In this document: positions 16,248 to 50,813 of the stretch, piece by piece
Layout: each line of letters opens with the position of its first letter
How positions within the stretch are numbered: position 1 is the first letter of the stretch
DNA from: an uncultured archaeon
GTDB taxonomy: Archaea; Iainarchaeota; Iainarchaeia; Iainarchaeales; JAAZKV01
Assembly: GCA_964534045.1 (NCBI GenBank)
Contig: CAZHNO010000001.1
Span: 1,786 to 65,785 of the forward strand
DNA: 64,000 nucleotides
Reading direction: 5' to 3'
Translations under genes and position numbers: made by a program
Notes under the pieces: model-generated
Told to the model about the DNA's origin: nothing
What the model saw: only the letters and a program-made list of their open reading frames with translations
The model's database searches: none

Positions 16248-18164
16248 TTGATAGTAATGGGCTTTAGTAAGTTAAATATACATGAAAAAGTAATGAAAGG
16301 ATTAACAGAAATGGGTTTTGAAATCCCTACTTCTATCCAACAACGATGTATTCCTGAAATAAAAAAAGGACATGATATTGTTGGCCAATCATTAACCGGT
16401 TCGGGGAAGACCGCTGCATTTGGAATACCCTTGTTAGAACAGGTTACACCCGGTGAAGGAATACAAGCTTTAATTTTAACACCAACAAGAGAATTGTGTT
16501 TACAAGTAAGAGATAATTTAGAAAAAATGGGTAAATATGTTCCATTAAATATTAAGAGTATTTTTGGTGGAGTTGGTTATTACCAGCAAAGAGAAGACAT
16601 TTTGATTGCTGAAATAATTGTTGCAACACCAGGAAGATTACTAGATCATTTGAATCAAGGAAATATTAGTTTAGAAAAAGTAAAATTTGTTGTTTTAGAT
16701 GAAGCTGATAGAATGGTTGACATGGGTTTTTCAAAAGATGTAGAAAAAATTCTTAGAAAAACTGCTTCAAAAAGACAAACAACAATGTTCAGTGCAACAA
16801 TGCCTCCTGAAGCAAAGCACATAATCAAAACTTTTTTACACGAACCAATTTACATAACAGAACAATTGCAAGTTGATAATGAATTACTAAAACAAAAAGT
16901 GTATTACATAAGACAAGAAGATAAATTTTCTTTACTTGTTCATTTACTAAAACAAAATACTGGAAATGCAATTATTTTTTGTGGAAAAAAAAGAACTGTT
17001 GATAAGCTATCAAGAAATATTAGAAAACAAGGTTTTGCTGTAATGCCAATACATGGTGATATTGTTCAAAGCAAAAGACAAATGGCAATAAAAATGTTCA
17101 AAGATAAAAAAATTGATTTCTTAATAGCAACAGATGTTGCTGCAAGAGGAATTGACATTGACCACGTTTCACACATTTATAATTATGACACTCCAAAAAC
17201 ACCAGATGAATACACTCATAGAATTGGGAGAACTGCTCGTGCTGGAAAAAAAGGAGAAGCAATTAATTTAGTTAGTGAAAATGATAATGCACAATTTAAA
17301 GATATTTTAAAAGTTAGAAAAGAAATGACAGAAGAAGCGTTGCCCGAATTTGAAAAACTTGTATTTGAAAAAGGCTCTCACTCAAGAGACTTTGACAGAG
17401 ATTCTGGACGAAGCTTTGGAAGAAGTTCTGGGAGAGATTTTGGAAGACACCCAAAAGATAATTATAGAGGTGGAAAAGGCTCTGGAAGAAGTTCAAGAGA
17501 ATTTTTTAGAAACAGAGATGAGAATTCTCCAAGAAATAAATTTGGCCCAAAAACTGAAAGTTCTGAATCAAGTCCTTCTGAATCAGTTAGCCGAGATAGT
17601 TATGGAAATAGAAGTTCAGGAAGTAGTTATGGTAGAAGTTCTGGCGGTTATAGAGGAAATTATGGAAGAAGCTCTAGTGGCTATGGACAAAGGTCAAGTA
17701 ATTATAGAGGAAATTCTGAAGGTGGACGAAGTTCTCACGGTGGATACGGCAGAAGTTCTTCAGGCGAAAGTTCTGGGTATGGAAGAAGTTCTGGTAGAAG
17801 TAGTTACGGACGAAGTTCTAATGGTGGAAGAAGCCCTGGTGGCTATAGAGGAAATTCTGGCGGAGGATATGGAAGAAGCTCTGGTGGAAGTTCAGGTTAT
17901 GGAAGAAGTTCTGAAGGAAGTAGTTCTGGTAGAAGCCCAAGTGGTGGCTATGGAAGAAGTTCAAGTGGTTATGGAAGAGATTCTGGAGAAAGTTCAGGAA
18001 GAAGTTTTGGTGACAGAAGTGGAGCACCAAGAAGTAGTTTTCCAAACAAATTTTCTCACGCTAAACCAAAATCCTTTTCTCACAAACGTTCAGGCGAAGC
18101 AAGCAAACCTCGTAACTTCGGCAAAAGAAGAAATTATGTTAATAAAAAATCTAATAGAAATTAG
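16248..18164 (+). CDS. DEAD-box ATP-dependent RNA helicase with about 270-aa C-terminal G/S/R/Y-rich low-complexity tail
   Basis: Q-motif, TGSGKT, DEAD, SAT and HRIGRTARAG motifs. The tail is built from GYGRSS/GRSSG-type degenerate repeats. Confidence 0.85.
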   Translation: MIVMGFSKLNIHEKVMKGLTEMGFEIPTSIQQRCIPEIKKGHDIVGQSLTGSGKTAAFGIPLLEQVTPGEGIQALILTPTRELCLQVRDNLEKMGKYVPLNIKSIFGGVGYYQQREDILIAEIIVATPGRLLDHLNQGNISLEKVKFVVLDEADRMVDMGFSKDVEKILRKTASKRQTTMFSATMPPEAKHIIKTFLHEPIYITEQLQVDNELLKQKVYYIRQEDKFSLLVHLLKQNTGNAIIFCGKKRTVDKLSRNIRKQGFAVMPIHGDIVQSKRQMAIKMFKDKKIDFLIATDVAARGIDIDHVSHIYNYDTPKTPDEYTHRIGRTARAGKKGEAINLVSENDNAQFKDILKVRKEMTEEALPEFEKLVFEKGSHSRDFDRDSGRSFGRSSGRDFGRHPKDNYRGGKGSGRSSREFFRNRDENSPRNKFGPKTESSESSPSESVSRDSYGNRSSGSSYGRSSGGYRGNYGRSSSGYGQRSSNYRGNSEGGRSSHGGYGRSSSGESSGYGRSSGRSSYGRSSNGGRSPGGYRGNSGGGYGRSSGGSSGYGRSSEGSSSGRSPSGGYGRSSSGYGRDSGESSGRSFGDRSGAPRSSFPNKFSHAKPKSFSHKRSGEASKPRNFGKRRNYVNKKSNRN

Positions 18165-27551: not shown

Positions 27552-28043
27552 CTACAATTTTTTTATTTCTAAATACTTTGCAATCTTTGATCTTAAAAAA
27601 GGGGTTAATGATTTGGCTACTGCAAGCTGTTCATCCCTTGGAAGTCTTTCAAATGCCTTTATCATATTTGCTTGCGCTGTTTGTGGATTAAAAATTCTTT
27701 TTTTTAATTCAGAAGTATTAACTGCTGGGCGAATAACATCTTTCTTTTGAGGAATAAATTGAGCCCCTTGCTTTTTTCTTTCTGCTTTTTCTAGTTTTGC
27801 ATGCTCTCTTCTTTGAGCATCCAGCTCATGAAGTTCAACCATAGTTAATTTGCCTGACATTAACCCTTGAATCATTGAAGATATTTTTGTTACTTCATGA
27901 CTAGCATTTGCTTCCTGTGCAACCCTTAATCTTTTAGAAAGATGTTGATAAACAGGATGTTCCCAATATTTTTTTGGATCAAACCTTGGAATTCCATTAG
28001 GCACTTCTTTCATTTTTGGCTTTTGCTCTCTTTTTTTAGGCAT
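27552..28043 (-). CDS. Basic hypothetical protein
   Basis: 163 aa, Lys/Arg-rich (MPKKREQKPK...). Visibly more G+C-rich codon usage than its neighbours. Confidence 0.35.
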   Translation of the reverse strand: MPKKREQKPKMKEVPNGIPRFDPKKYWEHPVYQHLSKRLRVAQEANASHEVTKISSMIQGLMSGKLTMVELHELDAQRREHAKLEKAERKKQGAQFIPQKKDVIRPAVNTSELKKRIFNPQTAQANMIKAFERLPRDEQLAVAKSLTPFLRSKIAKYLEIKKL

Positions 28044-28247
28044 GAAATAATATTCCCATTATAACAATAAAAGGTTTTCTATTACTTTTAACCATCCATA
28101 CTTTGTTTAACACCGGCACGCCCCTCTAAAAAAGTTTAAATTCTACTTTTCAATATATTTTGTTGACTAGAAAAAGACACAAAATTTTGATTATAAAAAG
28201 GTTTAAAAGGTTGAAAGAGGAATAAGTTATTATTGAATCCCCGGGGT

Positions 28248-28277
28248 TGTTTCGACAAACCCGGGCTTACTTTATTT
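28248..28277. other. GC-rich hairpin with UUCG-type tetraloop in AT-rich intergenic region
   Basis: CCGGGGTTGT-TTCG-ACAAACCCGG: 9 of 10 stem pairs with one G/A mismatch. Lies between divergent gene starts. Confidence 0.3.
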
Positions 28278-28382
28278 TCAATAAAATCAAAAAAAGTTCC
28301 ACCTAATTAATTATCAAAGGCATCAAACCCAAGATAACTTTTTAAATACCGGGTGGTTAATATTCATTAAAGGTTGATTTAA

Positions 28383-28547
28383 ATGGCTAAAGTAATAAGA
28401 GCAACTCCTACTTTGAGAGGGGAAGAAGCAAATCTTTTCATTAAAGATATTCTAAAAAATGACAATGCAAGATTATCAAGACACCAAAAAAAGCTGTTTA
28501 GTTTTATTGAAAAAGCCCCTTTTTCTCTAGACGATTTCTCTCTTTAA
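28383..28547 (+). CDS. Small ORF (54 aa) downstream of a TTTTTAAATA box
   Basis: The ATG lies about 30 nt after TTTTTAAATA. Not in the ORF track because it is shorter than 60 aa. Its 3' end overlaps the convergent GNAT gene. Confidence 0.2.
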   Translation: MAKVIRATPTLRGEEANLFIKDILKNDNARLSRHQKKLFSFIEKAPFSLDDFSL

Positions 28548-29115
28548 ACTCATTAATATACGGCTGGACATCCAAATACATTGAAATGTAAGATGCATTA
28601 GCTTTTCTTTCTTTTAAAACTTTAAACCCTAATTTTTTATAAAAATGAATTGGCTTTTCAGATTCTTTCAAATTGCTTTCATTCTTTGCTTCTACCGTCA
28701 ATATTCTACAACCGGCTTTTCTGTTAATAAAAAACACTTGTTTTATTGCATTGCCAATAATCATTGTGCCCAATCTTTTCCTGACAACTCTTTCATCCAC
28801 AGCCATTCTTGCAATTTTTAGTGCAGGAATTGCCTTGTAAGGTATTCCATCTTCTTTGAATTTCTGCTTATCACTACCCCCTAAATGAATGGAATCAGTG
28901 CAAAGAGTAACATAACCAAGAATTTGCTTTTCATTTTTTGAAAACCATAAACTTGTTTTTCCCACTGATTTATTTTGTTGTGTTAAAGCATCCTCTTTTA
29001 GAAAATCATTCAAATCTTTTATCCCACATTTAAAATCTTCAATAAACTTTGAAGTAACTTCAGTAAGAGGCAAAATTTCAATATCTTCAACAGGATAAAT
29101 TTCTTTCATTAACAT
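28504..29115 (-). CDS. GNAT-family N-acetyltransferase
   Basis: IARMAVDERVVRKRLGTMIIGNAI acetyl-CoA-binding (R/Q-x-x-G-x-G/A) region; 203 aa. Confidence 0.55.
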   Translation of the reverse strand: MLMKEIYPVEDIEILPLTEVTSKFIEDFKCGIKDLNDFLKEDALTQQNKSVGKTSLWFSKNEKQILGYVTLCTDSIHLGGSDKQKFKEDGIPYKAIPALKIARMAVDERVVRKRLGTMIIGNAIKQVFFINRKAGCRILTVEAKNESNLKESEKPIHFYKKLGFKVLKERKANASYISMYLDVQPYINEFKERNRLEKKGLFQ

Positions 29116-29208
29116 AACTAAATTATTAAAATCGAGTTTTTAAAACTTAATAGAGCATCATGCCACTCAAAATTATTTAATTTCAGTTGGTGACAATTTG
29201 TAACCAAC

Positions 29209-30357
29209 TCAATCGTTTTCCCATTTCCCCAATTTAACCTGAAAACCTTTTTCTTTTTCCACAAATTTCTCTATTTTTTTATTACCTTTTTTTACTTCAG
29301 AGCCTAACTTCAAATAATTCAAATTAGAGTATTCTTCATACAATTTGTGTTTTTTTAAGTATTTTTCTAGTTTTTCCTTGTCCCATTTCAGTTTTTCTAT
29401 TTCTTTTATTGAAGCCTTCATTTTAGAGCCAAAAACAACGTTTATTTTGTGTTGTTTTGAATACTCAAACAAATCCTTTTGTAATTCTTCTTTTCTTTGT
29501 TTTAATTCATCTTCTTTTTCTTTTATTTCAACTAATTCATTAACTATTTTTACTCCTTCATCTTTCTTGAATTCTTTTATTGTTTTTTCTTCTAAATCTG
29601 CCTCGTGTTTGAAAGAAGGGCATAAGTGCTTGTAAACACAATAATCACATAATTTTGTTATGTTTGGAGGAAAGTCTTTACAATTAGTAATTTCATTGAT
29701 TTTTCCTATTGTTTCTTTTCTTATTTGTTTTAATTGTTCATAGGTTCTCGTGCTTTTTACTTCTTTATTAAATTTTAGCATATGCCACAACAATATTACT
29801 TTTTTTGCATCAGGATACTTTTGTTTAACCCAGAGAGAATACATTGCTAATTGCCTATCCTCATCCGCTTCTTTTTGCTCTTTCATTCTTGAATTTGTTT
29901 TATAATCACAAACAAAATAAGTGTCTCCTTTACAAGCCAACCTATCTATCCTAATTGAATAATTATTTGTTCCTAATTTTAAAAAATCACTTGTTTCTAA
30001 ACCAAGAATAGTATACTGCTCAAAAGGCTTGTAAGTATCATAATAATCTTCTAAAAATTTTTTTCCCTGAGTTTTGTAATTATTTGCTGTGTATTCTTTT
30101 TTAGTTATCTTTACTTCCTTTTCCTTTTCAAAATTTTTTTTCCACACTTCCTCATAATACTCTAACAATTCCTCTTTACTCAAATCCTTCCCATGCAACT
30201 TATCCCTATACAACTTCTCCAAAACCTCATGAACACAAGAACCCATAAACGCCTCAATAGTAGTCTCAACATCCACCCTAACCCTATCAACATACCTAAA
30301 CTTATAAGCCAACTTACAATTCTCAAACAACGAAATCTTTGAATGCGAGAAGTTCAT
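29209..30357 (-). CDS. Cas4-like PD-(D/E)xK nuclease with Fe-S cysteine cluster and coiled-coil C-terminal extension
   Basis: N-terminal Cys (FENCKLAYKFRY), IRIDRL..., VCDYKTN (D-x-K), and the C-x2-C-x5-C triad CDYCVYKHLC. Followed by about 120 aa of K/E-rich coiled coil. Confidence 0.6.
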   Translation of the reverse strand: MNFSHSKISLFENCKLAYKFRYVDRVRVDVETTIEAFMGSCVHEVLEKLYRDKLHGKDLSKEELLEYYEEVWKKNFEKEKEVKITKKEYTANNYKTQGKKFLEDYYDTYKPFEQYTILGLETSDFLKLGTNNYSIRIDRLACKGDTYFVCDYKTNSRMKEQKEADEDRQLAMYSLWVKQKYPDAKKVILLWHMLKFNKEVKSTRTYEQLKQIRKETIGKINEITNCKDFPPNITKLCDYCVYKHLCPSFKHEADLEEKTIKEFKKDEGVKIVNELVEIKEKEDELKQRKEELQKDLFEYSKQHKINVVFGSKMKASIKEIEKLKWDKEKLEKYLKKHKLYEEYSNLNYLKLGSEVKKGNKKIEKFVEKEKGFQVKLGKWEND

Positions 30358-30924
30358 TTATTTTTCACCCAAAGGAATTGCTTTTCTTATTTTACAATAA
30401 TGGTTTTCAGCTCTTATTTTAATTCCAATTTCTTTTGAAAAGAATTCAAATTCTCTTATTTTAGCATCTTTTTTTACTTTTTGTTCAATATCCTTTGGCA
30501 AGTATAATATTTTTGAAGAATGTGGATTATATAAGTCTAAAATAAATTTCCCTTGTTTTTCTGAATATTTTCCAATTTCTTTAACAATTTCATTGTGTAA
30601 TTTTTGTAATTCCTCATTTTTTTCTATTCTAATAACTAAATGAGATAAGTCTCCCGCTGAAAAAAGAGTTAATTCTTTTGATTTAATTTTAATTGGCTTG
30701 TATTTTTTTGCAATTTTTCTTAACATAGCTTCAATTTCATCTTTATGCTCAAAACAATTCCCCATTGAAAGCAAGGTTATGTGTGGAACATCATAATAAA
30801 TTCCATCATTAGGATGTTTGTTTTGACACTTTTTTGAATATTTTTTATGAAGCTCTTTTATCTCAGAATTAAGCTCTGAATACAATGGTTCTGGGATTGT
30901 CAAAACAATAGCAGTAGTCTCCAT
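30358..30924 (-). CDS. 2H phosphoesterase (LigT / 2'-5' RNA ligase-like)
   Basis: Two H-x-[TS]-x motifs (VPHITLL and NPHSSKIL) at LigT-like spacing; 188 aa. Start abuts the stop of the upstream nuclease gene. Confidence 0.45.
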   Translation of the reverse strand: METTAIVLTIPEPLYSELNSEIKELHKKYSKKCQNKHPNDGIYYDVPHITLLSMGNCFEHKDEIEAMLRKIAKKYKPIKIKSKELTLFSAGDLSHLVIRIEKNEELQKLHNEIVKEIGKYSEKQGKFILDLYNPHSSKILYLPKDIEQKVKKDAKIREFEFFSKEIGIKIRAENHYCKIRKAIPLGEK

Positions 30925-31002
30925 ATACTAATCATTCAATAAAAAGAATTTAATTGTTTTGGGGGTAGCGGGCTGGTGGAGGAATAGGAAAATTTTAATT
31001 TA

Positions 31003-31614
31003 TTACCTAAAAAGCGCTTTTAATTTAAAAAATCCGTTAGGCTCATAACGAAAGCCCCACAAATTTTCACGAAAACAACCATTTACTTTAGAGGCCTCAA
31101 TTGCTTTTTTAAAATCATCATAATTTCCAATCCACCGATAGTAGTCAATCCTAAAATTCTCATCCTGAGAAACTGGAAGCAACACAAGCTTATCTTGAGT
31201 TAACTCAAAAAGGTAAGAATCGAAAAACTCTGCTTCAGTTAAACTCGAACCATATTTTATTGTATCCACACTATCAATCAGACCAGTAATAAGCTTATTT
31301 TTATCAAGTTTAAATTTTAAAACTGCTGACCACTCAGAGGAAACATAACTCATAACCTCTTCATGTGAAGATTGGGGAAATTCTTCTGACAAAGAATCTA
31401 TTTCTTCTTTGGATGCGGGCCCCATATATTCATAAACAACATTTGTATCTTTATCATAAAATCTTGCTGAAAAGATACAGTCATCATCTCCATAAATCCA
31501 GATTTCTCCGAATAGAGCTTCGTTCGAATCCAATTTGTTATTTTGTTGAATTATTTCCGTACACCCAAAGACAAGGATGAAAAAAATTAACAAAACAAAA
31601 ATCTGTTTCTGCAA
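31003..31614 (-). CDS. Hypothetical secreted/lipoprotein
   Basis: N-terminal hydrophobic segment with VFGC lipobox-like motif; 203 aa. Confidence 0.35.
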   Translation of the reverse strand: MQKQIFVLLIFFILVFGCTEIIQQNNKLDSNEALFGEIWIYGDDDCIFSARFYDKDTNVVYEYMGPASKEEIDSLSEEFPQSSHEEVMSYVSSEWSAVLKFKLDKNKLITGLIDSVDTIKYGSSLTEAEFFDSYLFELTQDKLVLLPVSQDENFRIDYYRWIGNYDDFKKAIEASKVNGCFRENLWGFRYEPNGFFKLKALFR

Positions 31615-32130
31615 TTAAATCAACTCCAAATAACTTTTTAGTCCAGAAAAAAAATTATTGGACCCAGGTGAACCTATCGGAGATGTATTTACAACATTGA
31701 ACTTATTTATAATTAGCTTTTTGCTCAAAACTTTAAATCCGGGTGTTCCCACAATAATTATCTTAAAAGAGGAGCTTACTTTTGAAATACCATTTAGTTT
31801 AGAAAATAACTTGTTAGAGTCTAGTTTTATTCTACTTTCTTTTATTCGTTGAGGAAGCCCATTAATTTCATTATAGGTAGAATCAATAATAAAATAACCT
31901 TTTTTAGCAAACGCTTCTAATGACTCTTTTTTTGAGTTAAATTTTTTCCCAACCGTTTTTTCAATTAGCCAATTAAACCACCGCGGCCCAATAGTTTTAT
32001 CATCATAAAAATATATTCCATTACTCGGCGGGGATTCAAAAATAAAAACAACTTTTGTTTTTCTCTCAAACTTTTCTGGCGCATATCTTTCTCGCATTTT
32101 AATGTAATCTTCTTTTTTCATGTTTTTCAC
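31615..32130 (-). CDS. Hypothetical protein
   Basis: 171 aa, no confident motif. Abuts the previous gene. Confidence 0.3.
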   Translation of the reverse strand: MKNMKKEDYIKMRERYAPEKFERKTKVVFIFESPPSNGIYFYDDKTIGPRWFNWLIEKTVGKKFNSKKESLEAFAKKGYFIIDSTYNEINGLPQRIKESRIKLDSNKLFSKLNGISKVSSSFKIIIVGTPGFKVLSKKLIINKFNVVNTSPIGSPGSNNFFSGLKSYLELI

Positions 32131-32267
32131 ACAATTTAATCTTAAAACTATTTTTATATTTAATCTTATAAAAATAATTTTAGACCTAGAATTTAAAGGT
32201 TGGCGAGGATAGGTGCCGGCATGAAAGCTAAGAAAGATGTAAAAAGGTTTTTTTTAATTAATATTGT

Positions 32268-32603
32268 ATGATTAAAAAACAAAACAATGCTGATTTACAA
32301 AATATGGCGCTTACACAACAAATGGAAATCCAAAAACAACAAGCAAAAAATTTTAATCTTCTTTTAGAAAAGGGAATACCCGCAATTGAAAAATATTTAA
32401 ATGCCAAATTGGTACATTATGATAAACCACGATTTAAATATGCCATTGGAGGAGTTTGTTTAATTCTTTTGATAATCGTTATTGGGTCAATGTTTTTAGT
32501 TTTCAATGGTTTATTGGGCGCGGACGCATTTACTTTTTTAATGGGGATTATTGTTGGATATCTTCTTACTTTCTTTAAAGAAATGCTCTTTTCTAATGAT
32601 TAA
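32268..32603 (+). CDS. Small membrane protein
   Basis: 111 aa with two C-terminal TM helices. Confidence 0.35.
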   Translation: MIKKQNNADLQNMALTQQMEIQKQQAKNFNLLLEKGIPAIEKYLNAKLVHYDKPRFKYAIGGVCLILLIIVIGSMFLVFNGLLGADAFTFLMGIIVGYLLTFFKEMLFSND

Positions 32604-32630
32604 CTTTCAATGAAAAAACACTGATAAAAT

Positions 32631-33587
32631 ATGGCTCATTATATATTATTACATAAAAAAATATTCTTGTTTCTGTTAATCCTGTTTGTTCTACTTTTTT
32701 GTTTAACCCCTTATATAAGTTTATCCCAAATAGCAAAAAATGAAACATTTGGGGTGAATAGTAACAAAGAAAAGGCAATTATAATCGCAAATCTATTTAA
32801 GAAAAAATATGATTTTCCAACTAAAGAAAGTGATGGATTTCTTTATACAATTTATTCAATTTTCAACCAAAATTTTATAGTCTCTTTTTGGACTAATCAT
32901 GTTGATTGTGTCGGAGCGTCAGATGTATTTGTGTATATGATGCAATCAGTAGGCATAACTACAAGGCGAGTCGGCACAAATGGTGAAACCCATTTTTGGG
33001 CTGAATTTTATGATGGAAATGAATGGTTGAATATTGACCCATTTAATGATTCAAGTGGCCACAGCATAGGTGACTTAAACTTTTATTCTTCTTGGGATCA
33101 ACCATTTGGAAAAAGATTTTCTTTCGTTTATTATGAAGATGAAAATGGAACACATGACATTACAAAAAAATATCGTGAAACAGGAACAATAAAAATATTT
33201 AATTTTGAAAACGGCAAGTCTTCAAAAAGTTTTGTAATAGTAAAATCTCACCACTTAATGGAAGTATCAGACAAATATAAAGAGCCATTTGTTTCATTTT
33301 CAAGTTACACGGACAAAAATGGTTTTTTTGAACATGACTTTGGATATGGAAATAATTACACAATTGAGCTACTAACTGGTTTTCCTGAATTTGCACCAGT
33401 ACTCATATTCAGCAAAGAAAAGAAAATTTATCTCGACAAAAATAAAACTATCGAAGTTCGTTTTGATGAACCAATGCATTTCAAAGGACTAAATGATTTT
33501 ATAGTTGCCCCGTTTTTAGGGGCAATTATTCTTACAGCAGTAATTATTGGAATGAAAATTGGTAAAAAAATTAACAAGTTTTGTTAA
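32631..33587 (+). CDS. Transglutaminase-like cysteine protease-fold protein, membrane anchored
   Basis: DCVGASDVFVYMMQSVGI...THFWAEFYDGNEWLNIDP carries the Cys-His-Asp core of the transglutaminase-like superfamily. N-terminal signal/TM and C-terminal TM. Confidence 0.7.
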   Translation: MAHYILLHKKIFLFLLILFVLLFCLTPYISLSQIAKNETFGVNSNKEKAIIIANLFKKKYDFPTKESDGFLYTIYSIFNQNFIVSFWTNHVDCVGASDVFVYMMQSVGITTRRVGTNGETHFWAEFYDGNEWLNIDPFNDSSGHSIGDLNFYSSWDQPFGKRFSFVYYEDENGTHDITKKYRETGTIKIFNFENGKSSKSFVIVKSHHLMEVSDKYKEPFVSFSSYTDKNGFFEHDFGYGNNYTIELLTGFPEFAPVLIFSKEKKIYLDKNKTIEVRFDEPMHFKGLNDFIVAPFLGAIILTAVIIGMKIGKKINKFC

Positions 33588-33604
33588 TAACGAACCAAAA
33601 TAAT

Positions 33605-33856
33605 TCATTCACAAGCCACCCCATCATCATCCCTATCTAAGTCGTGAATGTCTTTTTCGCATTGTTCAAATATTTTTTGTGCTTCTTTTTGTGTTTTGAA
33701 GTCTGAGCAATTGTAAATATTGTATGAACAATCAATTGATTTTAGTTCAATTGAATCTTTTTGTTCTACATAATTATTTTCTTTTTGAGTGCAACCAAAA
33801 AGAAGGAAGAGTAAAAGAAAGATAAATATTATTCCAAAAATAACAAACTTACTCAT
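33605..33856 (-). CDS. Excalibur calcium-binding domain lipoprotein
   Basis: C-terminal [12 protein letters not shown] is the Excalibur D-x-D-x-D-G-x-x-C-E motif. N-terminal signal with LFGC lipobox. Confidence 0.6.
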
Positions 33857-33956
33857 TAGTGATATACTATTAAGAAATATTTAAATACTTAATGATAATA
33901 TACTATTAGTAGATGAAGCATAGTATTTTAAAAAAAGAAGAATTACATATATCACA

Positions 33957-34091
33957 ATGGCAGAAATTATACTCAAAGGATACCAATGCGAAAGATGCGG
34001 ACACAAATGGGTTCCAAGAGAACAAAAAGAAAAACCAAGAGTATGCCCAAAATGTAAAAGTCCATATTGGGATAAGCCAAAGAAGAAATAA
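33957..34091 (+). CDS. Small zinc-ribbon protein (44 aa)
   Basis: MAEIILKGYQCERCGHKWVPREQKEKPRVCPKCKSPYWDKPKKK has two CxxC pairs. Not in the ORF track (under 60 aa). Immediately upstream of the C5-methyltransferase. Confidence 0.35.
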   Translation: MAEIILKGYQCERCGHKWVPREQKEKPRVCPKCKSPYWDKPKKK

Positions 34092-34218
34092 TTTTAGAAG
34101 CAATTATATATTTAGAATGAAAACACCCTTCAAAAACTTACAAGTAATACAAAAATGTTTAGTGGCACAAAACTAATATTAAGTTTATAAACAAAATAGA
34201 GATTAAATTTTATGTGGG

Positions 34219-35181
34219 ATGAGGATGAATAATAAAATAAAAGTTTTTGATAGCTTTACAGGTTATGGCGGTGCAAGTTGGGGTTTAAAGAAGGCAGGCA
34301 TTCCTTTTGAAGTTATTGGATATTCTGAAATTTGTCCAATGGCAATAGAATTATATGAATTAAATCATTCTCAAACCAAAAATTATGGAGACATCACAAA
34401 AATAAAACCTAACGATCTTCCAGATTTTGATTTATTCACTGGGGGTTTTCCATGCCAATCTTTTTCAACTGCTGGAAAAGGAATGGGTGAATTAGACACA
34501 AGAGGAACTTTGTTTTGCGATATTATAAGAATTTGCGAAGTTAAACAACCAAATTTTATTCTTTTAGAAAATGTTAAAGGATTATTGTCAAAAAGACACA
34601 AGGAAACTTTCAAAAAAATTATTAGCGAACTTCAAAGAATTGGATACAATGTAAGATATGAATTATTAAATTCAAAAGATTTTGGCATTCCTCAAAATAG
34701 AGAGCGTGTTTGGATTTTTGCAACTAAAAAACAAATACCTTTTGGTTGGCAATTAAGTCCACCTAAAGAAAAGTTAAAAAAGAATTTTAAAGACTTTTTA
34801 GATAAGAATGTAGATAAAAAATATTATAAAAATGAAAACCAAGTAATTAGATTAGAAGAAGTAACTGGAGTTAAATTAGAAGTTAATGAACCAACTTGCT
34901 TTGATGTATATAATAAAAAATTGAAAAAAGATGGGTTGTGCCTCACAATTACTGAACCACACCATAATACACTTAGAGTTGTTGAACCTAATGAAGATAA
35001 AAATAAAAGAGTTAGAAAAATGACTGAACAAGAACAATTTAAATTTATGGGTTTTGAAGAAAATGAATTAAATTTTGGTGAAATGTCATATACTAGATTG
35101 TCAAAATGTGCAGGCAATGGTTGGGATGTAAATTTAGTTAGTAAATTAATGAAAAGAATATTTGAAACAAAATGGGACTAA
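34219..35181 (+). CDS. dcm: DNA (cytosine-5)-methyltransferase
   Basis: Motif I FDSFTGYGG, motif IV GGFPCQSFS, motif VI ENVKGLL, motif VIII QNRERVWI, motif X CAGNGW; 320 aa. Confidence 0.85.
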   Translation: MRMNNKIKVFDSFTGYGGASWGLKKAGIPFEVIGYSEICPMAIELYELNHSQTKNYGDITKIKPNDLPDFDLFTGGFPCQSFSTAGKGMGELDTRGTLFCDIIRICEVKQPNFILLENVKGLLSKRHKETFKKIISELQRIGYNVRYELLNSKDFGIPQNRERVWIFATKKQIPFGWQLSPPKEKLKKNFKDFLDKNVDKKYYKNENQVIRLEEVTGVKLEVNEPTCFDVYNKKLKKDGLCLTITEPHHNTLRVVEPNEDKNKRVRKMTEQEQFKFMGFEENELNFGEMSYTRLSKCAGNGWDVNLVSKLMKRIFETKWD

Positions 35182-44768: not shown

Positions 44769-44854
44769 CTCTTGCTTAAATTTAAAAACTCAAAGAAATT
44801 AATTTCTAAATGAAATTAGAAAGACTTATATTCTATAGTGTTCTATATCTTACT

Positions 44855-45070
44855 ATGGCTACAACGATACAAGTTAGTGCAGAACTAAAAAATCAATTGG
44901 AAAAGAGGAAAATGCGTTCTGAATCTTATGAAGATGTTATTTGGGATTTGTTAGAGGACACTATGGAATTAAGTGAAGAAACTAAAAGAAAAATTAAAAT
45001 TGCTGAAAAACAAATTGCTAGAGGCGAAGTTTATACCCTTGAAGAAGTCAAAAAAGAGTTGGGGTTATAA
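44855..45070 (+). CDS. RelB/DinJ-like antitoxin
   Basis: 71 aa (MATTIQVSAELKNQLEKRK...) immediately upstream of, and abutting, the RelE-like toxin. Internal ATG preferred over the ORF-track start at 44810. Confidence 0.5.
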   Translation: MATTIQVSAELKNQLEKRKMRSESYEDVIWDLLEDTMELSEETKRKIKIAEKQIARGEVYTLEEVKKELGL

Positions 45071-45325
45071 ATGTATGAAGTAACTTTATCTAAAGATGCT
45101 AAAAAATCCCTAAACAAACTTAACAAAATAGATAGTGAACGAATTATTTCGGTTTTAGAGCGGATTAGAATACGCCCACATGTTTTTGTAAAAAAACTTG
45201 TTGGAGTGAAGTATTTCTCAGCAAGAGCTGGAAAATATAGAATTATTTTAGACATTCAAGAAAATAAACTAATTATTTTTGTTATTGAAATTGGACATAG
45301 AAAAAATATTTACAAAACTTTGTAA
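45071..45325 (+). CDS. relE: RelE/ParE-family type II toxin
   Basis: KYRIILDIQENKLIIFVIEIGHRKNIY is a classic RelE/ParE C-terminal signature; 84 aa. Confidence 0.8.
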   Translation: MYEVTLSKDAKKSLNKLNKIDSERIISVLERIRIRPHVFVKKLVGVKYFSARAGKYRIILDIQENKLIIFVIEIGHRKNIYKTL

Positions 45326-46883: not shown

Positions 46884-49800
46884 ATGAAAAAGATAGTAAA
46901 AATTTGGTTAATCGTTATTTTGATAGTTTTAGCTATCGTATTAATAAACTCAAATTTTTCTTTCACAGGGCTTTTTTTGCAAAAACAGGAATCAATTAGT
47001 TTTTCAGGAATTTGTAATAGCAATAACATTTGTGAAATTGGAGAGGATGATGAAAATTGTCCACAAGATTGTTTACCCAGGGCACCCAAAAATGAAAACT
47101 GCTTGTGCATTTACAGAAACGGAGATATTAATTCAGAAAAAATCTGTGAATATTATGCTGAAAAAAGGCCAGGAGTACATACTCTTGGTTTAAACTTAAG
47201 TTCAGGGATAGAAAGTGCACAAAAAAGCGTATTCATTTCTGAAGTTATTGATCCTCTTTGGGAATGGGTGGAAGCAAATGATGAATTAAAAATAACTCAT
47301 TTGGCAGTTGCAAGAGGCATTCCTACTGAAGTAATAATTGGAAATAGAACATATGGTGCTGCTTCAATGTTAGCCCTTTCAAAAGAATTTTATGATATTA
47401 GTCCTGGAATATCAGGAAATACACTAACTTTTATTCACTTTGATCCTGAAAAATATAAAACTGATGATGGAAAATATACATTCAGATTTGCTGTATCTTA
47501 TTTAACTGCTTATCAATTGGAAGATGTTTTAAAAATGATTGATAAAGCACAAGCCCCTATCCAAAATTTTGATGAATTAAAATGGTTTTTTGATGCGGAT
47601 GAAGATGAATTTCCAACAACTAAAATAAACTTAAAACAAGTTAAAGCAGAGTTAATAAAACAAGGAGTTCTTCCAGAAAATATTATTCTTGATTTTAACA
47701 ATGCTTTGCATACAAATCCTGAAGGCCCGATAATTGGATTTAATAGTGCAGGAAGACACCACACCGGTTATAGTCATTTATGGATGACACAAGAAAAATA
47801 TTTTAATCTTGAAGTTGCTAATCGCGCAATAATGAGTAGCGTTGAAAGTTATAATGCACACACTTTTTTTGGAAAACCTGATGAAAATATTGACGAAAGA
47901 ACAATTGGCCAAGGAAGAATTGCTGATGCTGTAAGCAAGATAGCTTTTGGGGGAGAAAATTATTCAAATAGTTTTGCAGGAGCAGGGGGAAATGTTACAG
48001 AACCATATCTGGGGTATCACATGAATGCAGAAAGATTTTTACCAGCATATGCTACTGGTTTAACACTTGGTGAAACTTTTTTAACAACACACCCATTAAG
48101 ATGGACTGCAATAATGATTGGAGACCCTTTAATGAGATTGATTGAAGATGATAAAGTTGGTTTACCAAATGGTACTGCTTGTGAAAATAATTCTCAATGT
48201 TATTCTAGAATTTGTGGAAATTCTCAAATTGGAGAAAAATTTTGTCATGCAAATCAAAATAATTGTGTTTATACTCAACAAAGTTTTGTTTATGATCTTA
48301 TGAATGGAAACAAAATTTGTAAGGAAATTACGAGCCAAACTGATATTTTATTTACTTGTGAAAATGGTACTTGGAAATTAGAAAAAGCCCCGGAGGAATA
48401 TTTGTGTAAATCAGTAAACTCTTTTTGGGATTTTGACGCAGACTTTTTTAAAAAAAATGGATTAGTTTGTTTGTCTGATGAAGAGTGTTATTCAAATGAT
48501 TGTAAAAAAGATTTAAGTGGAATAAAAAGATGTCAAAATAAAGACATTTGTCCAGTAAATAAAACTCAATATGTTAATAATAATTCATTTGCTTGTGTCT
48601 CAGAAAACCAAAAAATAAAATGTGTTAATGGTGAATGGGTAAACGGAATAATCAATTGCGATAATGAATGTATTGATGGAATGTGTTTGGGCGAATTTTT
48701 TACCCCTCCAAATATATTTACTATTGAAAAAAACAGGGATTATTATATGGCATTACCCATTAATCCTTCTTCAAAAAAAGTAAGTGATATTTTTGGAACA
48801 AATTTAGATTCTGGTAATCAAATTTATTTTTTTAGAAATAGTTGGACTTCAACAAGTTTTATTAAATTTGGAACAATTGAACAGTGGAATCCTGATTTGG
48901 AAATTAAAAATGGCGAGGGTTTTTTATTGAATCTAAATAGTGATATTAACATAATTATTGAAGGAGATGAAATAACTGAATCATTTCCTATTGAAATTAA
49001 AGGAAGTTCTAATTTGATAGGAATTCCAACACTGGGTAAAAAAAGAATGGCTTCTGAAGTTTTAGAAGAAATTAATTTACTAGATGATAGCTGTTATACA
49101 ATAAAATCTGGAGGAGGAAATGGAAAAAGTTATTCTATTACTAATGAAGGTGTTGAAGGAGAAGATTTTGAAATTTTTAATTATATTGCTTATTGGATTA
49201 TTTGTGATGAAAATACTAATATTACTTGGGTGCCTTTTGAAAATGAATGTACTCCTGGAGAATTTTGTGGATTAAATAGTTGTGAAGCAAATTATTGTGT
49301 TGATAATTTACTAAAAAAATTTCCACAAAATTGTGAAAAATTTTGTAATAATAACAGAGAATGTGTAGGTTGTTCTTGCACAGTAATTGAACAAAATTGT
49401 GGTTCAAATGCACTATGTTCTAATGGGGTTTGTTTAAGTTGTGGAGATAATTTTGCTAATTGTGATGGGATTACTGGCAATGGTTGTGAAATAAATGTTA
49501 AAGAAGATAACGGAAATTGTGGTTCTTGTGGAAATATTTGTGGTGATGGTAAAGAGTGTATTAATGGCGTTTGTGAAGATATAAATTTATGTAAAAATAT
49601 AAATTGTGGAACGAATGCATTTTGTAAATCTGAAACAGGTTCTTGTGAATGTTTTAACAATTATTTAAATTGTGATAATAACTTTAGTAATGGATGTGAG
49701 CTTAGTACAAGTACAGGTTGTCCAGAATGTGAAAATAATGAAAGTAGACTTTGTGTAAATGAAAAATTGTGTTTAGGTTCGCAAGCTTGTGAAAATAAAA

Positions 49801-50813
49801 AATGGAATCAATGTTTAATTGAAACTGAATGTGAATTTGGAGAAGTAAGAACTTGCACTCCAAAAATTAATGGTGAAGATTGTAATTTAGTATTAGGAAA
49901 TCAAACATGTAACAAATGTGGGCAATGGGAAGCTTGCACAGTAAGTAGTAACATAAACTGTTGCAGTGGAAAAAAAGAAAATTGTTTTATAAATGGTTGT
50001 GAAGGAAAAAAACATTGTGTGGGTTTTATTTGGCAAGATTGTAAAAAAAATGATTTGCTTTGTGGATTAAACAACACTAGCACATTTGACTTAGATAATT
50101 TAAGCACTTCTAACACTAGCGAAGGTAGTTCAAATTTTTGTAAAAATAGTGATTGTGGTGAGGATGAATACTGTGTAGAAAATAAGTGTGTTAAGTTAGA
50201 GTGCATAGATGGATTTATAATAAAAAATCATGAATGTGTCTGTAATGGAATATTATGTAATGGATTTTGTTACGATACTATTGGAATTTGTTGTAATAAT
50301 AATTGGAATGAAGAGCTTGATTCTTGTGAAACTGAAAGAAATATTGTTTTAAATATAGTCATGAATTCAAAAAATAATGAAGCAATCAAACTTTATGATG
50401 AAGCTGAAGAATCAATAAAAAAAGGAGAAATTAAAAAAGCAAAAGCTCAGCTAAAAATTGCTGAGTTGAAAGCAAAAGAAAATATTAAAAATAAAGAGCT
50501 TGTTTATGAAAGCTTAGAAAAAATTAACCTTGCAATGCAAAATGAAAAATATTCTGAAGCAGAAAACCTCGCAATAGATGCATTAAATAATCTGAAAAAA
50601 GAAAATGAATTTGAACAATTTATGGATGGAGATTTTGCACAAACCATCTTACTAATCTTAAGTATTATTTTTTTATTAATTATTATTGTTGAAGTTAGTC
50701 CAAGAGTTTACAAAAAAGTGAAAAATAAAAGTGGTGGAAAGAAAAAAAATAAAAAAATAGTCAAAAGTGAAAAAGAAAAAATCTTAGAAGAACTAAAAAA
50801 ACAATTTAAATAA
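46884..50813 (+). CDS. Giant (1309 aa) cysteine-rich cell-surface protein with C-terminal TM anchor
   Basis: N-terminal signal/TM and an about 400-aa globular region. Then about 700 aa of EGF-like Cys-rich modules (…NCDGITGNGCEINV…, …NCDNNFSNGCELST…). A coiled-coil stalk, TM helix and K-rich cytoplasmic tail follow. Confidence 0.6.
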   Translation: MKKIVKIWLIVILIVLAIVLINSNFSFTGLFLQKQESISFSGICNSNNICEIGEDDENCPQDCLPRAPKNENCLCIYRNGDINSEKICEYYAEKRPGVHTLGLNLSSGIESAQKSVFISEVIDPLWEWVEANDELKITHLAVARGIPTEVIIGNRTYGAASMLALSKEFYDISPGISGNTLTFIHFDPEKYKTDDGKYTFRFAVSYLTAYQLEDVLKMIDKAQAPIQNFDELKWFFDADEDEFPTTKINLKQVKAELIKQGVLPENIILDFNNALHTNPEGPIIGFNSAGRHHTGYSHLWMTQEKYFNLEVANRAIMSSVESYNAHTFFGKPDENIDERTIGQGRIADAVSKIAFGGENYSNSFAGAGGNVTEPYLGYHMNAERFLPAYATGLTLGETFLTTHPLRWTAIMIGDPLMRLIEDDKVGLPNGTACENNSQCYSRICGNSQIGEKFCHANQNNCVYTQQSFVYDLMNGNKICKEITSQTDILFTCENGTWKLEKAPEEYLCKSVNSFWDFDADFFKKNGLVCLSDEECYSNDCKKDLSGIKRCQNKDICPVNKTQYVNNNSFACVSENQKIKCVNGEWVNGIINCDNECIDGMCLGEFFTPPNIFTIEKNRDYYMALPINPSSKKVSDIFGTNLDSGNQIYFFRNSWTSTSFIKFGTIEQWNPDLEIKNGEGFLLNLNSDINIIIEGDEITESFPIEIKGSSNLIGIPTLGKKRMASEVLEEINLLDDSCYTIKSGGGNGKSYSITNEGVEGEDFEIFNYIAYWIICDENTNITWVPFENECTPGEFCGLNSCEANYCVDNLLKKFPQNCEKFCNNNRECVGCSCTVIEQNCGSNALCSNGVCLSCGDNFANCDGITGNGCEINVKEDNGNCGSCGNICGDGKECINGVCEDINLCKNINCGTNAFCKSETGSCECFNNYLNCDNNFSNGCELSTSTGCPECENNESRLCVNEKLCLGSQACENKKWNQCLIETECEFGEVRTCTPKINGEDCNLVLGNQTCNKCGQWEACTVSSNINCCSGKKENCFINGCEGKKHCVGFIWQDCKKNDLLCGLNNTSTFDLDNLSTSNTSEGSSNFCKNSDCGEDEYCVENKCVKLECIDGFIIKNHECVCNGILCNGFCYDTIGICCNNNWNEELDSCETERNIVLNIVMNSKNNEAIKLYDEAEESIKKGEIKKAKAQLKIAELKAKENIKNKELVYESLEKINLAMQNEKYSEAENLAIDALNNLKKENEFEQFMDGDFAQTILLILSIIFLLIIIVEVSPRVYKKVKNKSGGKKKNKKIVKSEKEKILEELKKQFK

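What the first reader, a model, noticed from the sequence alone, without database searches (positions are those of the whole stretch)
29209..30924. Cas4-like Fe-S PD-(D/E)xK nuclease translationally abutted to a 2H (LigT-like) phosphoesterase, with no CRISPR-Cas nearby
The nuclease has the Cas4 cysteine arrangement (one N-terminal Cys plus C-x2-C-x5-C) and a D-Y-K active-site block, plus an unusual 120-aa coiled-coil tail. Its stop abuts the start of a protein with two H-x-S/T-x motifs, a 2',3'-cyclic phosphodiesterase / RNA ligase fold. Solo Cas4 genes are typical of viruses and MGEs. A nuclease plus cyclic-phosphate-processing pair could be an RNA/DNA end-processing or anti-defense module. 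A GNAT gene and a G+C-richer basic protein lie just upstream, consistent with horizontally acquired DNA.
Basis: partly seen in the sequence, partly recalled or inferred. Interest (0 to 1): 0.55.

Follow-up and report, generated by a model that had tools for sequence, protein, structure and literature searches.

The report
DPANN solo-Cas4 nuclease beside 2H phosphoesterase
Two real enzyme genes, an iron-sulfur DNA nuclease already known to be widespread in tiny DPANN archaea and a small RNA cyclic-phosphate esterase, sit end to end here. The pairing recurs only in a few close relatives, so this looks like an ordinary chromosomal neighbourhood, not a new mobile or anti-defence module.

Summary
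Both domain calls hold up. ORF 30357..29209 (-) is a 382-aa Cas4/AddB-type Fe-S PD-(D/E)xK nuclease. ORF 30924..30358 (-) is a 188-aa 2H phosphoesterase, and its model is closest to YjcG, CPDase and LigT. The window has no CRISPR array.

The full-length nuclease, tail included, is conserved at about 50% identity in at least 186 DPANN species. It has no full-length relative in viral collections and its composition is typical of the window. It matches the published, vertically inherited DPANN "solo-Cas4", which is often found next to restriction-modification genes.

The "coiled-coil tail" is a conserved domain specific to this family.

The pairing is not general. None of 80 species-level nuclease loci has this 2H family within 5 kb. 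Close relatives of the nuclease (71-75% identity) carry AIPR, restriction-modification or toxin-antitoxin genes there instead. Within the narrow 2H-bearing clade, one other lineage keeps the direct junction (ATGA overlap). Three others have the two genes 1.5-3 kb apart, with cargo inserted between them.

Best reading: two independent enzymes co-transcribed at a variable, defence-rich chromosomal slot. Interest is low.

The parts
30358..30924 (-). 2H phosphoesterase gene (188 aa), a YjcG/LigT-like family. It is the first gene of the probable bicistron.
   Evidence: Pfam PF13563 matches at E 3e-12 and PF02834 at E 9e-6. The H48-x-T50 and H135-x-S137 motifs are invariant in 10 homologs. The PDB profile search hits PH0099 (1VDX) at E 5.5e-6. 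The AF2 model has pLDDT 86, and its best Foldseek match is YjcG (2D4G) at E 3e-8 with TM 0.71.
29209..30357 (-). Solo-Cas4-type Fe-S PD-(D/E)xK nuclease gene (382 aa). Residues 1-250 form the nuclease domain and residues ~255-382 form a family-specific C-terminal domain.
   Evidence: Pfam PF12705 matches at E 6.9e-32 and the PADLOC Cas4 model at E 3.4e-8. Invariant residues are C14, C237, C240, C246, D138, D151, K153, Q169 and Y173. The AF2 model has pLDDT 86; its top Foldseek matches are ACE1 (9IAB), the AdnA nuclease domain, AddB, Dna2 and Cas4 SSO0001.
29209..29595 (-). Region encoding the C-terminal domain (residues ~255-382): a long helix (267-303) followed by a small alpha/beta unit. Its function is unknown.
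   Evidence: Conserved residues include F263, D266, G268, G310, S311 and K335. A profile of this domain finds 509 representative proteins at E<=1e-3. In the complete proteins listed, the domain nearly always sits at the C-terminus of a 350-410-aa protein. It has no Pfam family. The only PDB sequence hit is a non-significant one to the SMC4 hinge (E ~0.07).
30355..30360 (-). TAAATG junction: the 2H stop codon is immediately followed by the nuclease start codon.
   Evidence: Read directly from the sequence. The 382-aa start is supported by N-terminal conservation that includes the ligand Cys14. A 345-aa gene model on record in NCBI-derived data lacks that cysteine.
30925..31002 (-). 78-nt spacer upstream of the 2H gene. 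It contains an A/T-rich TATA-like stretch about 20-27 nt before the ATG, which is the probable promoter of the 2H-nuclease unit, and a unique GC-rich 23-mer.
   Evidence: Sequence; the 23-mer is unique in the window. The promoter role is inferred, because no archaeal promoter scan was available.
29186..29208 (-). Imperfect palindrome GTTGGTtacaaattgtcACCAAC directly after the nuclease stop codon. It may mark the end of the transcription unit.
   Evidence: Sequence. The function is inferred only.
33605..35181 (.). Excalibur-domain gene (33605-33856, -), an 87-aa ORF (33913-34176, +) and a Dcm cytosine methylase gene (34219-35181, +). Together with the nuclease gene they form the far border of the variable slot seen in close relatives.
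   Evidence: Pfam matches are. Homologs of these genes lie 1-4 kb from the nuclease or 2H gene in L091, L093, L097 and L102.

Best explanation
The window comes from the chromosome of a low-GC DPANN archaeon. The 382-aa protein belongs to the conserved DPANN solo-Cas4 lineage of Fe-S PD-(D/E)xK nucleases.

Nuclease. By homology it is a divalent-metal-dependent DNA nuclease. It probably acts on single-stranded DNA or on DNA ends. A [4Fe-4S] cluster is held by C14, C237, C240 and C246. A family-specific C-terminal helix plus alpha/beta domain probably mediates oligomerisation or binding of a partner or of DNA. Its likely role is DNA-end processing: recombinational repair, or degradation of DNA already cut by the restriction systems that so often flank it.

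2H protein. The 188-aa protein is an active-looking 2H phosphoesterase. It most likely hydrolyses 2',3'-cyclic phosphate ends of RNA or cyclic nucleotides.

Arrangement. In this genome the two genes are co-transcribed from a promoter upstream of the 2H gene. The juxtaposition is a lineage-specific arrangement inside a variable, defence-rich cargo slot bordered by the nuclease gene. It is not an obligate two-enzyme machine, and it is not a recently acquired mobile element.

Shown: the domain identities, the conservation, the distribution and the neighbourhood statistics. Inferred: the substrates, the co-transcription and the physiological role.
For: Domain identity.

Cellular and conserved:
- There are 1925 homologs, and the best 120 cover 89-100% of the query length.
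- 186 GTDB species encode a relative, nearly all labelled as DPANN archaea.
- IMG/VR holds none.
- The phage collection holds only relatives that are 27% identical and cover the nuclease domain alone.
- Composition is typical of the window.
- Diphthamide synthase and other housekeeping genes lie in the same window.

Published description: most DPANN encode solo-Cas4, inheritance is mostly vertical, and the gene is adjacent to RM genes in several DPANN genomes (PMC5704561).

Variable, defence-rich surroundings:
- Downstream neighbours include N6_Mtase (9), N6_N4_Mtase (9), Eco57I (8), HsdM_N (7) and ResIII (6).
- Upstream neighbours include ParE, Fic, CARF, GmrSD and nSTAND3.
- 21 of 80 loci have a methyltransferase-like gene within 3 genes of the nuclease.
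- Close relatives sit next to Dcm+MwoI, HsdMS+SduA_C, Bsp6I+Dcm, AIPR and ParE.

The pair is not obligate:
- 0 of 80 nuclease loci carry this 2H family.
- 2H orthologs in L003-L006, L008-L010 and L098/L099 have no nuclease within the flanks available.
- In L097+L104 four cargo genes sit between the two genes: a 125-aa ORF, an NTase, a peptidase S51 and a Bro-N protein.
- Zero-gap junctions are common in this genome.
Against: - Where the 2H family is present and enough flank is available, the nuclease lies within 3 kb in 5 of 8 distinct contexts: the window, L100, L097/L104, L105 and L007.
- In L100 the direct, translationally coupled junction (ATGA overlap) is kept although the 2H proteins are only 59% identical. 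Apart from Dcm, w33913 and Excalibur, little else is syntenic between these loci. Some selection for proximity therefore cannot be excluded.
- No experiment bears on the substrates.
- The C-terminal domain has no known homolog.
- The background rate of RM genes in DPANN genomes was not measured here.
Confidence: 0.68

Rival explanations
1. The 2H and nuclease genes form a true two-gene functional module, either a nucleic-acid end-processing system or a defence system. For example, the 2H enzyme could remove or create cyclic-phosphate ends on RNA or on RNA-DNA substrates that the nuclease then degrades. Alternatively, it could tune a cyclic-nucleotide signal that controls the nuclease.
For: - The junctions are translationally coupled in two lineages: TAAATG here and an ATGA overlap in L100.
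- The nuclease lies within 3 kb of the 2H gene in 5 of 8 informative 2H contexts.
- The surroundings are defence-island-like.
- CARF-domain neighbours occur in 4 of 139 upstream genes.
Against: - 0 of 80 nuclease loci carry this 2H family.
- No 2H Pfam family appears among the 25 most frequent neighbour families shown for each side.
- Equally close nuclease relatives (71-75% identity) lack the 2H gene at this position.
- Unrelated cargo is inserted between the two genes in L104, L105 and L007.
- 2H orthologs also occur beside NUDIX and Dus genes with no nuclease nearby.
- The nuclease is far more widespread than this 2H family.
Confidence: 0.12
2. The pair is part of a recently acquired virus, provirus, plasmid or anti-defence island. 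This is the first reader's idea: a solo Cas4 of mobile-element type plus a 2H enzyme that degrades immune signals, like Acb1 or the viral 2',5'-oligoadenylate phosphodiesterases.
For: - Cas4-like nucleases and 2H enzymes both occur in viruses. Campylobacter phage RecB/Cas4-like exonucleases match at 27% identity.
- Viral LigT-like folds match the 2H model.
- The flanking genes are variable.
Against: - Neither protein has a relative in IMG/VR.
- The 2H protein has no match in GenBank phages.
- Phage matches to the nuclease lack the C-terminal domain and cover at most 66% of the protein.
- GC content, GC3 and tetranucleotide composition are typical of the window.
- Acb1 ranks only 45th among viral structural matches (TM 0.42), whereas the cellular YjcG, CPDase and LigT structures are the best PDB matches.
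- No integrase, capsid or terminase gene was identified among the ORFs scanned between 21.6 and 38.7 kb.
- The nuclease is conserved at about 50% identity across DPANN phyla.
Confidence: 0.05
3. The 2H gene is simply a housekeeping RNA 2',3'-cyclic phosphodiesterase that deals with tRNA-splicing or RNA-decay by-products. The nuclease is a housekeeping recombination or repair nuclease. On this reading the defence-gene neighbourhood has no functional meaning for either gene.
For: - The closest structures are the cellular YjcG, CPDase and LigT.
- 2H orthologs lie beside NUDIX and tRNA dihydrouridine synthase genes.
- Published work reports purifying selection and vertical inheritance of solo-Cas4 (PMC5704561).
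- The M. mazei solo-Cas4 showed no response to virus challenge (PMC12501428).
Against: - This 2H family is narrow. Only 10 protein clusters and 13 metagenome loci were found, which is unlike a universal housekeeping gene.
- The score is below the ThpR equivalog cut-off: 28.3 bits against 65.7.
- RM genes are strikingly frequent next to the nuclease, in 21 of 80 loci.
Confidence: 0.15

Closest known systems
DPANN solo-Cas4 (Hudaiberdiev et al. 2017, BMC Evol Biol 17:232; PMC5704561)
   Same: It is a Cas4-family Fe-S PD-(D/E)xK nuclease encoded outside any CRISPR-cas locus. It occurs in most DPANN archaea, is mainly vertically inherited, and lies next to restriction-modification genes in several genomes. 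My 80-locus survey reproduces that context.
   Different: The paper focuses on pfam01930/COG1468 and treats pfam12705 only briefly. This protein scores on PF12705, and PF01930 is on record only for some of its homologs. I could not confirm that this exact clade is in their tree, because a search of the supplements found nothing. In the passages of that paper I read, the ~125-aa C-terminal domain and any link to a 2H gene are not mentioned.
[quoted passage not shown]
   Same: It is the best structural match (E 1e-10). It is a stand-alone Cas4-family nuclease with an Fe-S cluster. It acts as an ssDNA endonuclease and serves as an accessory to another defence protein.
   Different: Sequence identity is only 17-18%. 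ACE1 is about 266 aa and lacks the C-terminal domain. It is encoded next to a long-A pAgo, and no Argonaute gene was identified among the ORFs scanned near this pair.
AdnA/AddB/RecB-type nuclease domains of bacterial end-resection machines, and eukaryotic Dna2
   Same: They share the same PD-(D/E)xK fold with a Fe-S 'staple' (1 + 3 cysteines) and the QxxxY motif (NCBIfam AddA C-terminus at E 1.5e-5).
   Different: This protein has no helicase domain or helicase partner, it is a single small protein, and it is archaeal.
2H phosphoesterases YjcG (B. subtilis, 2D4G), ThpR/LigT (E. coli 5LDM/4QAK; P. horikoshii PH0099, 1VDX) and plant CPDase (1FSI)
   Same: It has two H-x-S/T motifs and the 2H fold (TM 0.65-0.71), and its size is similar.
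   Different: Identity is at most 22%. The score is below the ThpR equivalog threshold. The second motif is H-x-S-K instead of H-x-T-x. The family has invariant cysteines at positions 33 and 177. It is narrow and found only in one DPANN clade.
Campylobacter phage Cas4-like RecB exonuclease
   Same: It is a homologous nuclease domain, 27% identical over residues 3-253, and is a solo Cas4-like gene in a mobile element.
   Different: It has no C-terminal domain, it is bacterial and viral, and the relationship is too distant to indicate a viral origin for the gene in the window.

Membership tests
Cas4-family / PDDEXK_1 Fe-S nucleases | PD-(D/E)xK catalytic core: a motif II Asp, a motif III D/E-x-K, and the QxxxY motif | tested here: met
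   D138, D151-Y-K153 and Q169...Y173 are invariant in 58 sequences. PF12705 scores 111.8 bits against a cut-off of 22.
Cas4-family / PDDEXK_1 Fe-S nucleases | Four cysteines, one N-terminal plus C-x2-C-x5-C, that can hold a [4Fe-4S] cluster | tested here: met
   C14, C237, C240 and C246 are invariant. Actual cluster binding cannot be tested with these tools.
Cas4-family / PDDEXK_1 Fe-S nucleases | Fold similarity to solved Cas4-family or AddB-type nuclease structures | tested here: met
   Foldseek matches: ACE1 at E 1e-10, AdnA at 2e-9, AddB at 8.5e-6, Dna2 at 1e-4 and Cas4 SSO0001 at 2e-4.
Cas4 sensu stricto (pfam01930/COG1468, CRISPR adaptation) | A match to PF01930 and linkage to cas1/cas2 and a CRISPR array | tested here: not met
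   PF01930 gives no hit at E<=0.1 for this protein; only the PADLOC Cas4 model hits, at E 3.4e-8. The window has no CRISPR array, and no cas1 or cas2 appears in the scans shown (list truncated). It is therefore a 'solo' Cas4-like protein.
Cas4-family / PDDEXK_1 Fe-S nucleases | Metal-dependent DNA nuclease activity | not testable with these tools
   Inferred from the intact active site and from characterised relatives (PMC12501428, PMC12094033).
2H phosphoesterase superfamily | Two H-x-S/T-x motifs | tested here: met
   The motifs are H48-I-T50-L and H135-S-S137-K. H48, T50, H135 and S137 are invariant in 10 homologs.
2H phosphoesterase superfamily | The 2H fold: two lobes of beta-sheet with the His motifs facing a cleft | tested here: met
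   The AF2 model has pLDDT 86 and pTM 0.84. All 42 PDB matches with E<=1e-3 are to entries containing 2H-fold proteins, and YjcG is the best (TM 0.71). PF13563 scores 47.3 bits against a cut-off of 27.
ThpR/LigT RNA 2',3'-cyclic phosphodiesterase (TIGR02258 equivalog) | A score above the equivalog cut-off | tested here: not met
   The score is 28.3 bits against a cut-off of 65.7. It is a member of the superfamily, not an established ThpR ortholog.
Conserved two-gene operon or module (nuclease + 2H) | Adjacency that recurs across divergent lineages beyond what shared ancestry explains | tested here: inconclusive
   0 of 80 nuclease loci and 0 of 3 close-relative loci carry this 2H family. Within the 2H clade, 2 contexts are directly adjacent and 3 lie within 1.5-3 kb, out of 8 informative contexts. 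No synteny-decay model could be run.
Virus or mobile-element gene | Relatives in viral or plasmid sequence, atypical composition, or mobility genes nearby | tested here: not met
   IMG/VR holds no relative of either protein. Phages hold only distant matches to the nuclease domain alone, and none to the 2H protein. Composition z-scores are within +/-1.7. The plasmid collection was not searched.

The most novel reading that the evidence does not exclude
In one DPANN clade, the solo-Cas4 nuclease with its uncharacterised C-terminal domain and the narrow 2H phosphoesterase family act together. On this reading they form a small defence or nucleic-acid salvage module sitting at a defence hotspot. 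The 2H enzyme would process cyclic-phosphate RNA ends or a cyclic-nucleotide signal, and the nuclease would destroy the DNA. This would give a first functional handle on why nearly all DPANN archaea keep a solo Cas4 without CRISPR.
Probability: 0.1. Interest if true: 0.55.

Novelty: new member of a known kind. Interest (0 to 1): 0.25.

Why it matters
The function of solo-Cas4 in DPANN archaea and CPR bacteria, which mostly lack CRISPR, is an acknowledged open question (PMC5704561; PMC11420986). This locus does not answer it. It does add three modest points:
- The DPANN family carries a conserved, unannotated C-terminal domain of about 125 aa that is essentially restricted to this protein.
- The gene marks a slot where restriction-modification, Abi, toxin-antitoxin and other cargo genes turn over.
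- A 345-aa gene model on record in NCBI-derived data omits the N-terminal cysteine ligand.

The 2H pairing itself is probably incidental. It is useful mainly as a negative result that stops an 'anti-defence module' annotation from spreading.

Tried and rejected
- Exact look-ups of the 382-aa and 345-aa nuclease proteins in the contig index found nothing. The window's own contig was reached only through the 2H protein, on two short Logan contigs.
- A relaxed HMM search (E<=50, --max) for the 2H family in the 80 nuclease loci gave only noise.
- The sequence-profile search of the PDB with the full nuclease alignment gave no significant hit. Structure comparison was needed.
- The C-terminal domain gave only non-significant hits: the SMC4 hinge 3L51 at E 0.07 and 3FOV at rank 40 in Foldseek. 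I do not assign it a fold family.
- The bacterial promoter and terminator scan is uninformative for an archaeon.
- A search of the supplements of PMC5704561 for DPANN lineage names found nothing.
- The PADLOC hit of the 2H protein to PDC-S57 (E 1e-3) is too weak to use.
- The idea that the GNAT gene recurs with the pair was rejected. The GNAT in L007 is not detectably homologous to the GNAT in the window.
- The Acb1-like anti-CBASS reading of the 2H protein was rejected as a specific similarity, because Acb1 ranks 45th with TM 0.42.
Full report
**Observation**

On the minus strand, ORF 30924..30358 (188 aa) is followed without a gap by ORF 30357..29209 (382 aa). The junction reads TAAATG. The GNAT gene (28504-29115) and the basic-protein gene (27552-28043) lie downstream of the pair.

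- Nuclease: C14 plus C237-x2-C240-x5-C246, and D151-Y-K153.
- 2H protein: H48-I-T-L and H135-S-S-K.

**What the two proteins are**

*Nuclease.*
- It matches Pfam PDDEXK_1 (PF12705) end to end over residues 3-247 at E 6.9e-32. It also matches a PADLOC Cas4 model at E 3.4e-8.
- In alignments of 20 and 58 homologs, the four cysteines and D138, D151, K153, Q169 and Y173 are invariant.
- An AlphaFold2 model (pLDDT 86) is closest to ACE1, the Argonaute-associated Cas4-family enzyme (E 1e-10). The next matches are the nuclease domains of AdnA and AddB, then Dna2, then Cas4 SSO0001.

*2H protein.*
- It matches PF13563 at E 3e-12. A profile of the family hits Pyrococcus PH0099 at E 5.5e-6.
- Its model (pLDDT 86, pTM 0.84) is closest to B. 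subtilis YjcG (E 3e-8, TM 0.71). Bacterial and plant cyclic phosphodiesterases and LigT follow.
- It scores below the ThpR equivalog cut-off.

**The 'tail'**

Residues ~255-382 are not a mere low-complexity coiled coil.
- They contain conserved positions (F263, D266, G268, G310, S311, K335) and are modelled as a long helix followed by a small alpha/beta unit.
- A profile of this region alone finds 509 representative proteins in a 1.8-billion-protein library. Nearly all the complete ones carry the domain at the C-terminus of a 350-410-aa protein.
- It has no Pfam family. It has only non-significant resemblance to an SMC hinge.
- It is therefore a family-specific domain of unknown role. Oligomerisation or partner or DNA binding is my inference.

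**Where the nuclease family lives**

- The full-length protein has 1925 detectable homologs, and the best 120 cover 89-100% of its length. Beyond a few close relatives, identity is about 50%. Almost all named sources are Woese-, Pace-, Nano-, Iain- or Aenigmarchaeota.
- A scan of one genome per GTDB species confirmed 186 encoded relatives.
- The same scan of IMG/VR confirmed none.
- A tblastn search of GenBank phages found only Campylobacter-phage Cas4-like exonucleases, at 27% identity over the nuclease domain alone.
- The window itself carries archaeal housekeeping genes.
- The 27.5-31 kb region has typical GC content, GC3 and tetranucleotide composition.

This matches the published picture. 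Most DPANN archaea encode a solo-Cas4 without CRISPR-Cas, these genes evolve mostly vertically, and in several DPANN genomes they lie next to restriction-modification genes (PMC5704561; echoed in PMC11420986). The mobile-element or horizontal-transfer reading is not supported.

**Is the pair a module?**

*Starting from the nuclease.*
- None of 80 species-level loci (flanks of up to 5 kb on each side) contains a member of this 2H family, even at permissive thresholds.
- Pfam scans of 139 upstream and 140 downstream neighbours show no 2H family among the 25 most frequent neighbour families listed for each side.
- The three relatives of 71-75% identity whose contexts I looked up are flanked instead by Dcm+MwoI and ParE, by HsdM/S+SduA_C and NUDIX, or by Bsp6I+Dcm and AIPR.

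*Starting from the 2H protein.* The family is narrow, with 10 protein clusters and 13 metagenome loci. The contexts are as follows.

| Context | Arrangement |
|---|---|
| Window | 2H directly upstream of the nuclease, zero gap (TAAATG) |
| L100 | Same order, ATGA overlap; 2H 59% and nuclease 75% identical to the window's |
| L097+L104 | 3 kb apart; four cargo genes between (a 125-aa ORF, an NTase, a peptidase S51, a Bro-N protein) |
| L105 | About 2.2 kb apart, order reversed, two genes between |
| L007 | 1.5 kb apart on opposite strands; the nuclease is a tail-less 269-aa variant |
| L003-L006, L094, L095 | No nuclease within the available flanks; a NUDIX gene lies nearby |
| L008-L010, L096 | No nuclease within the available flanks; NUDIX and Dus genes are adjacent |
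| L098, L099 | No nuclease within the available flanks |

The linkage therefore exists, but only inside one clade, and it is repeatedly broken by insertions.

In that clade, the nuclease gene and a small Excalibur-domain gene bracket a slot whose content differs from genome to genome. The 2H gene is one occupant of that slot. Zero-gap or overlapping junctions are frequent in this compact genome (8 of 43 same-strand pairs), so abutment is weak evidence by itself.

**Context of the nuclease family at large**

- 21 of 80 loci carry a DNA-methyltransferase-like gene within three genes of the nuclease. It is usually directly downstream on the same strand.
- Upstream genes include ParE, Fic, CARF-domain, GmrSD and STAND NTPase genes.
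- I did not measure a background rate. My rough expectation of a few percent is an inference.

**Most likely mechanism**

- The nuclease is a metal-dependent DNA nuclease with a structural [4Fe-4S] cluster. Characterised relatives cut ssDNA (ACE1; PMC12094033) or linear and supercoiled dsDNA (M. mazei solo-Cas4; PMC12501428).
- In DPANN cells it probably processes DNA ends for repair, or finishes off restricted foreign DNA.
- The 2H enzyme probably hydrolyses 2',3'-cyclic phosphates on RNA or nucleotides.
- In this genome the two genes are probably co-transcribed from the A/T-rich spacer at 30925-31002.

All of these statements are inferred.

**Rivals**

- A true two-gene module has about 0.12 probability. 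It is kept alive by the L100 junction and the 5-of-8 linkage.
- A mobile or anti-defence island has about 0.05 probability.
- Purely housekeeping roles with a meaningless neighbourhood have about 0.15 probability.

**Verdict**

The nuclease is a new member of a known kind, the DPANN solo-Cas4. The 2H protein is a new small family within a known superfamily. Interest is low, at 0.25.

Noticed in passing
window 29209-35181; loci L091, L093, L097+L104, L102: In close relatives, the solo-Cas4 gene and a small Excalibur-domain gene (with an 87-aa ORF beside it) bracket a slot whose cargo differs in every genome. Cargo seen includes AIPR, a toxin-antitoxin-like NTase pair, a Bro-N protein, a peptidase S51, a transglutaminase-like protein and the 2H gene. 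Different Dcm/RM cassettes lie beyond the Excalibur gene. It looks like a chromosomal integration or defence hotspot.
   Followed up: partly
80 GTDB loci L011-L090 (nuclease at ~5001-6150 in most): 21 of 80 DPANN loci have a DNA-methyltransferase-like gene within three genes of the nuclease, mostly directly downstream on the same strand. Type I, II and III RM components, GmrSD, HNH and Vsr genes also recur. This quantifies a one-sentence remark in Hudaiberdiev 2017. No background rate was measured.
   Followed up: partly
window 30247-30357 (-): A 345-aa gene model on record in NCBI-derived data (P0001) starts at Met38 and so omits the invariant Cys14 ligand of the Fe-S cluster. A 382-aa version on a Logan contig (P0281) and the homolog alignment support the longer ORF.
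   Followed up: yes
window 30961-30983 (-): A GC-rich 23-mer, TCCTCCACCAGCCCGCTACCCCC, sits in the 78-nt spacer upstream of the 2H gene in a 29%-GC genome. It is unique in the window (0 expected by chance) and its function is unknown.
   Followed up: partly
window 29186-29208 (-): An imperfect palindrome, GTTGGTtacaaattgtcACCAAC, begins immediately after the nuclease stop codon. It may be a transcript-end hairpin or a protein-binding site.
   Followed up: no
window 28044-29115: The GNAT protein (28504-29115, -) has an N-terminal FKCGxxxLNDFL segment. From memory it resembles the tRNA-acetylating GNAT toxins (TacT/AtaT type); this was not tested. It is followed by a 460-nt stretch with no ORF of 60 aa or more. 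A 54-aa convergent ORF (28383-28547, +) overlaps its 3' end.
   Followed up: no
L007 3691-4500 (-) and 6001-6579 (+): A more distant genome carries a tail-less 269-aa variant of the nuclease (48% identity, ending just after the Cys motif). It lies 1.5 kb from a 2H ortholog, with an unrelated GNAT gene and a 256-aa unknown gene between them.
   Followed up: partly
window 44810-45325 (+); L091 7137-7612: A small toxin-antitoxin pair (VapB/DUF7557-like plus ParE-like) lies 15 kb from the nuclease in the window. It has 67-77% identical homologs placed directly beside the nuclease gene in L091 and L092, which suggests the cassette moves around within the clade.
   Followed up: no
window 46884-50813 (+): A 1309-aa ORF has no Pfam match at E<=1e-3. 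It lies upstream of a NUDIX gene and a MacB-type ABC transporter operon.
   Followed up: no
window 16257-18164 (+), repeats at 17381-18012: A DEAD-box helicase has a C-terminal tail encoded by degenerate G/S/R-rich repeats. This region is the GC peak (0.378) and the strongest tetranucleotide outlier of the window.
   Followed up: no
2H family alignment A2 (window protein residues 33, 57, 177): Cys33 and Cys177 are invariant and Cys57 is nearly invariant in this 2H family. These cysteines are not part of the canonical 2H motifs and could form a disulfide or a metal site.
   Followed up: no
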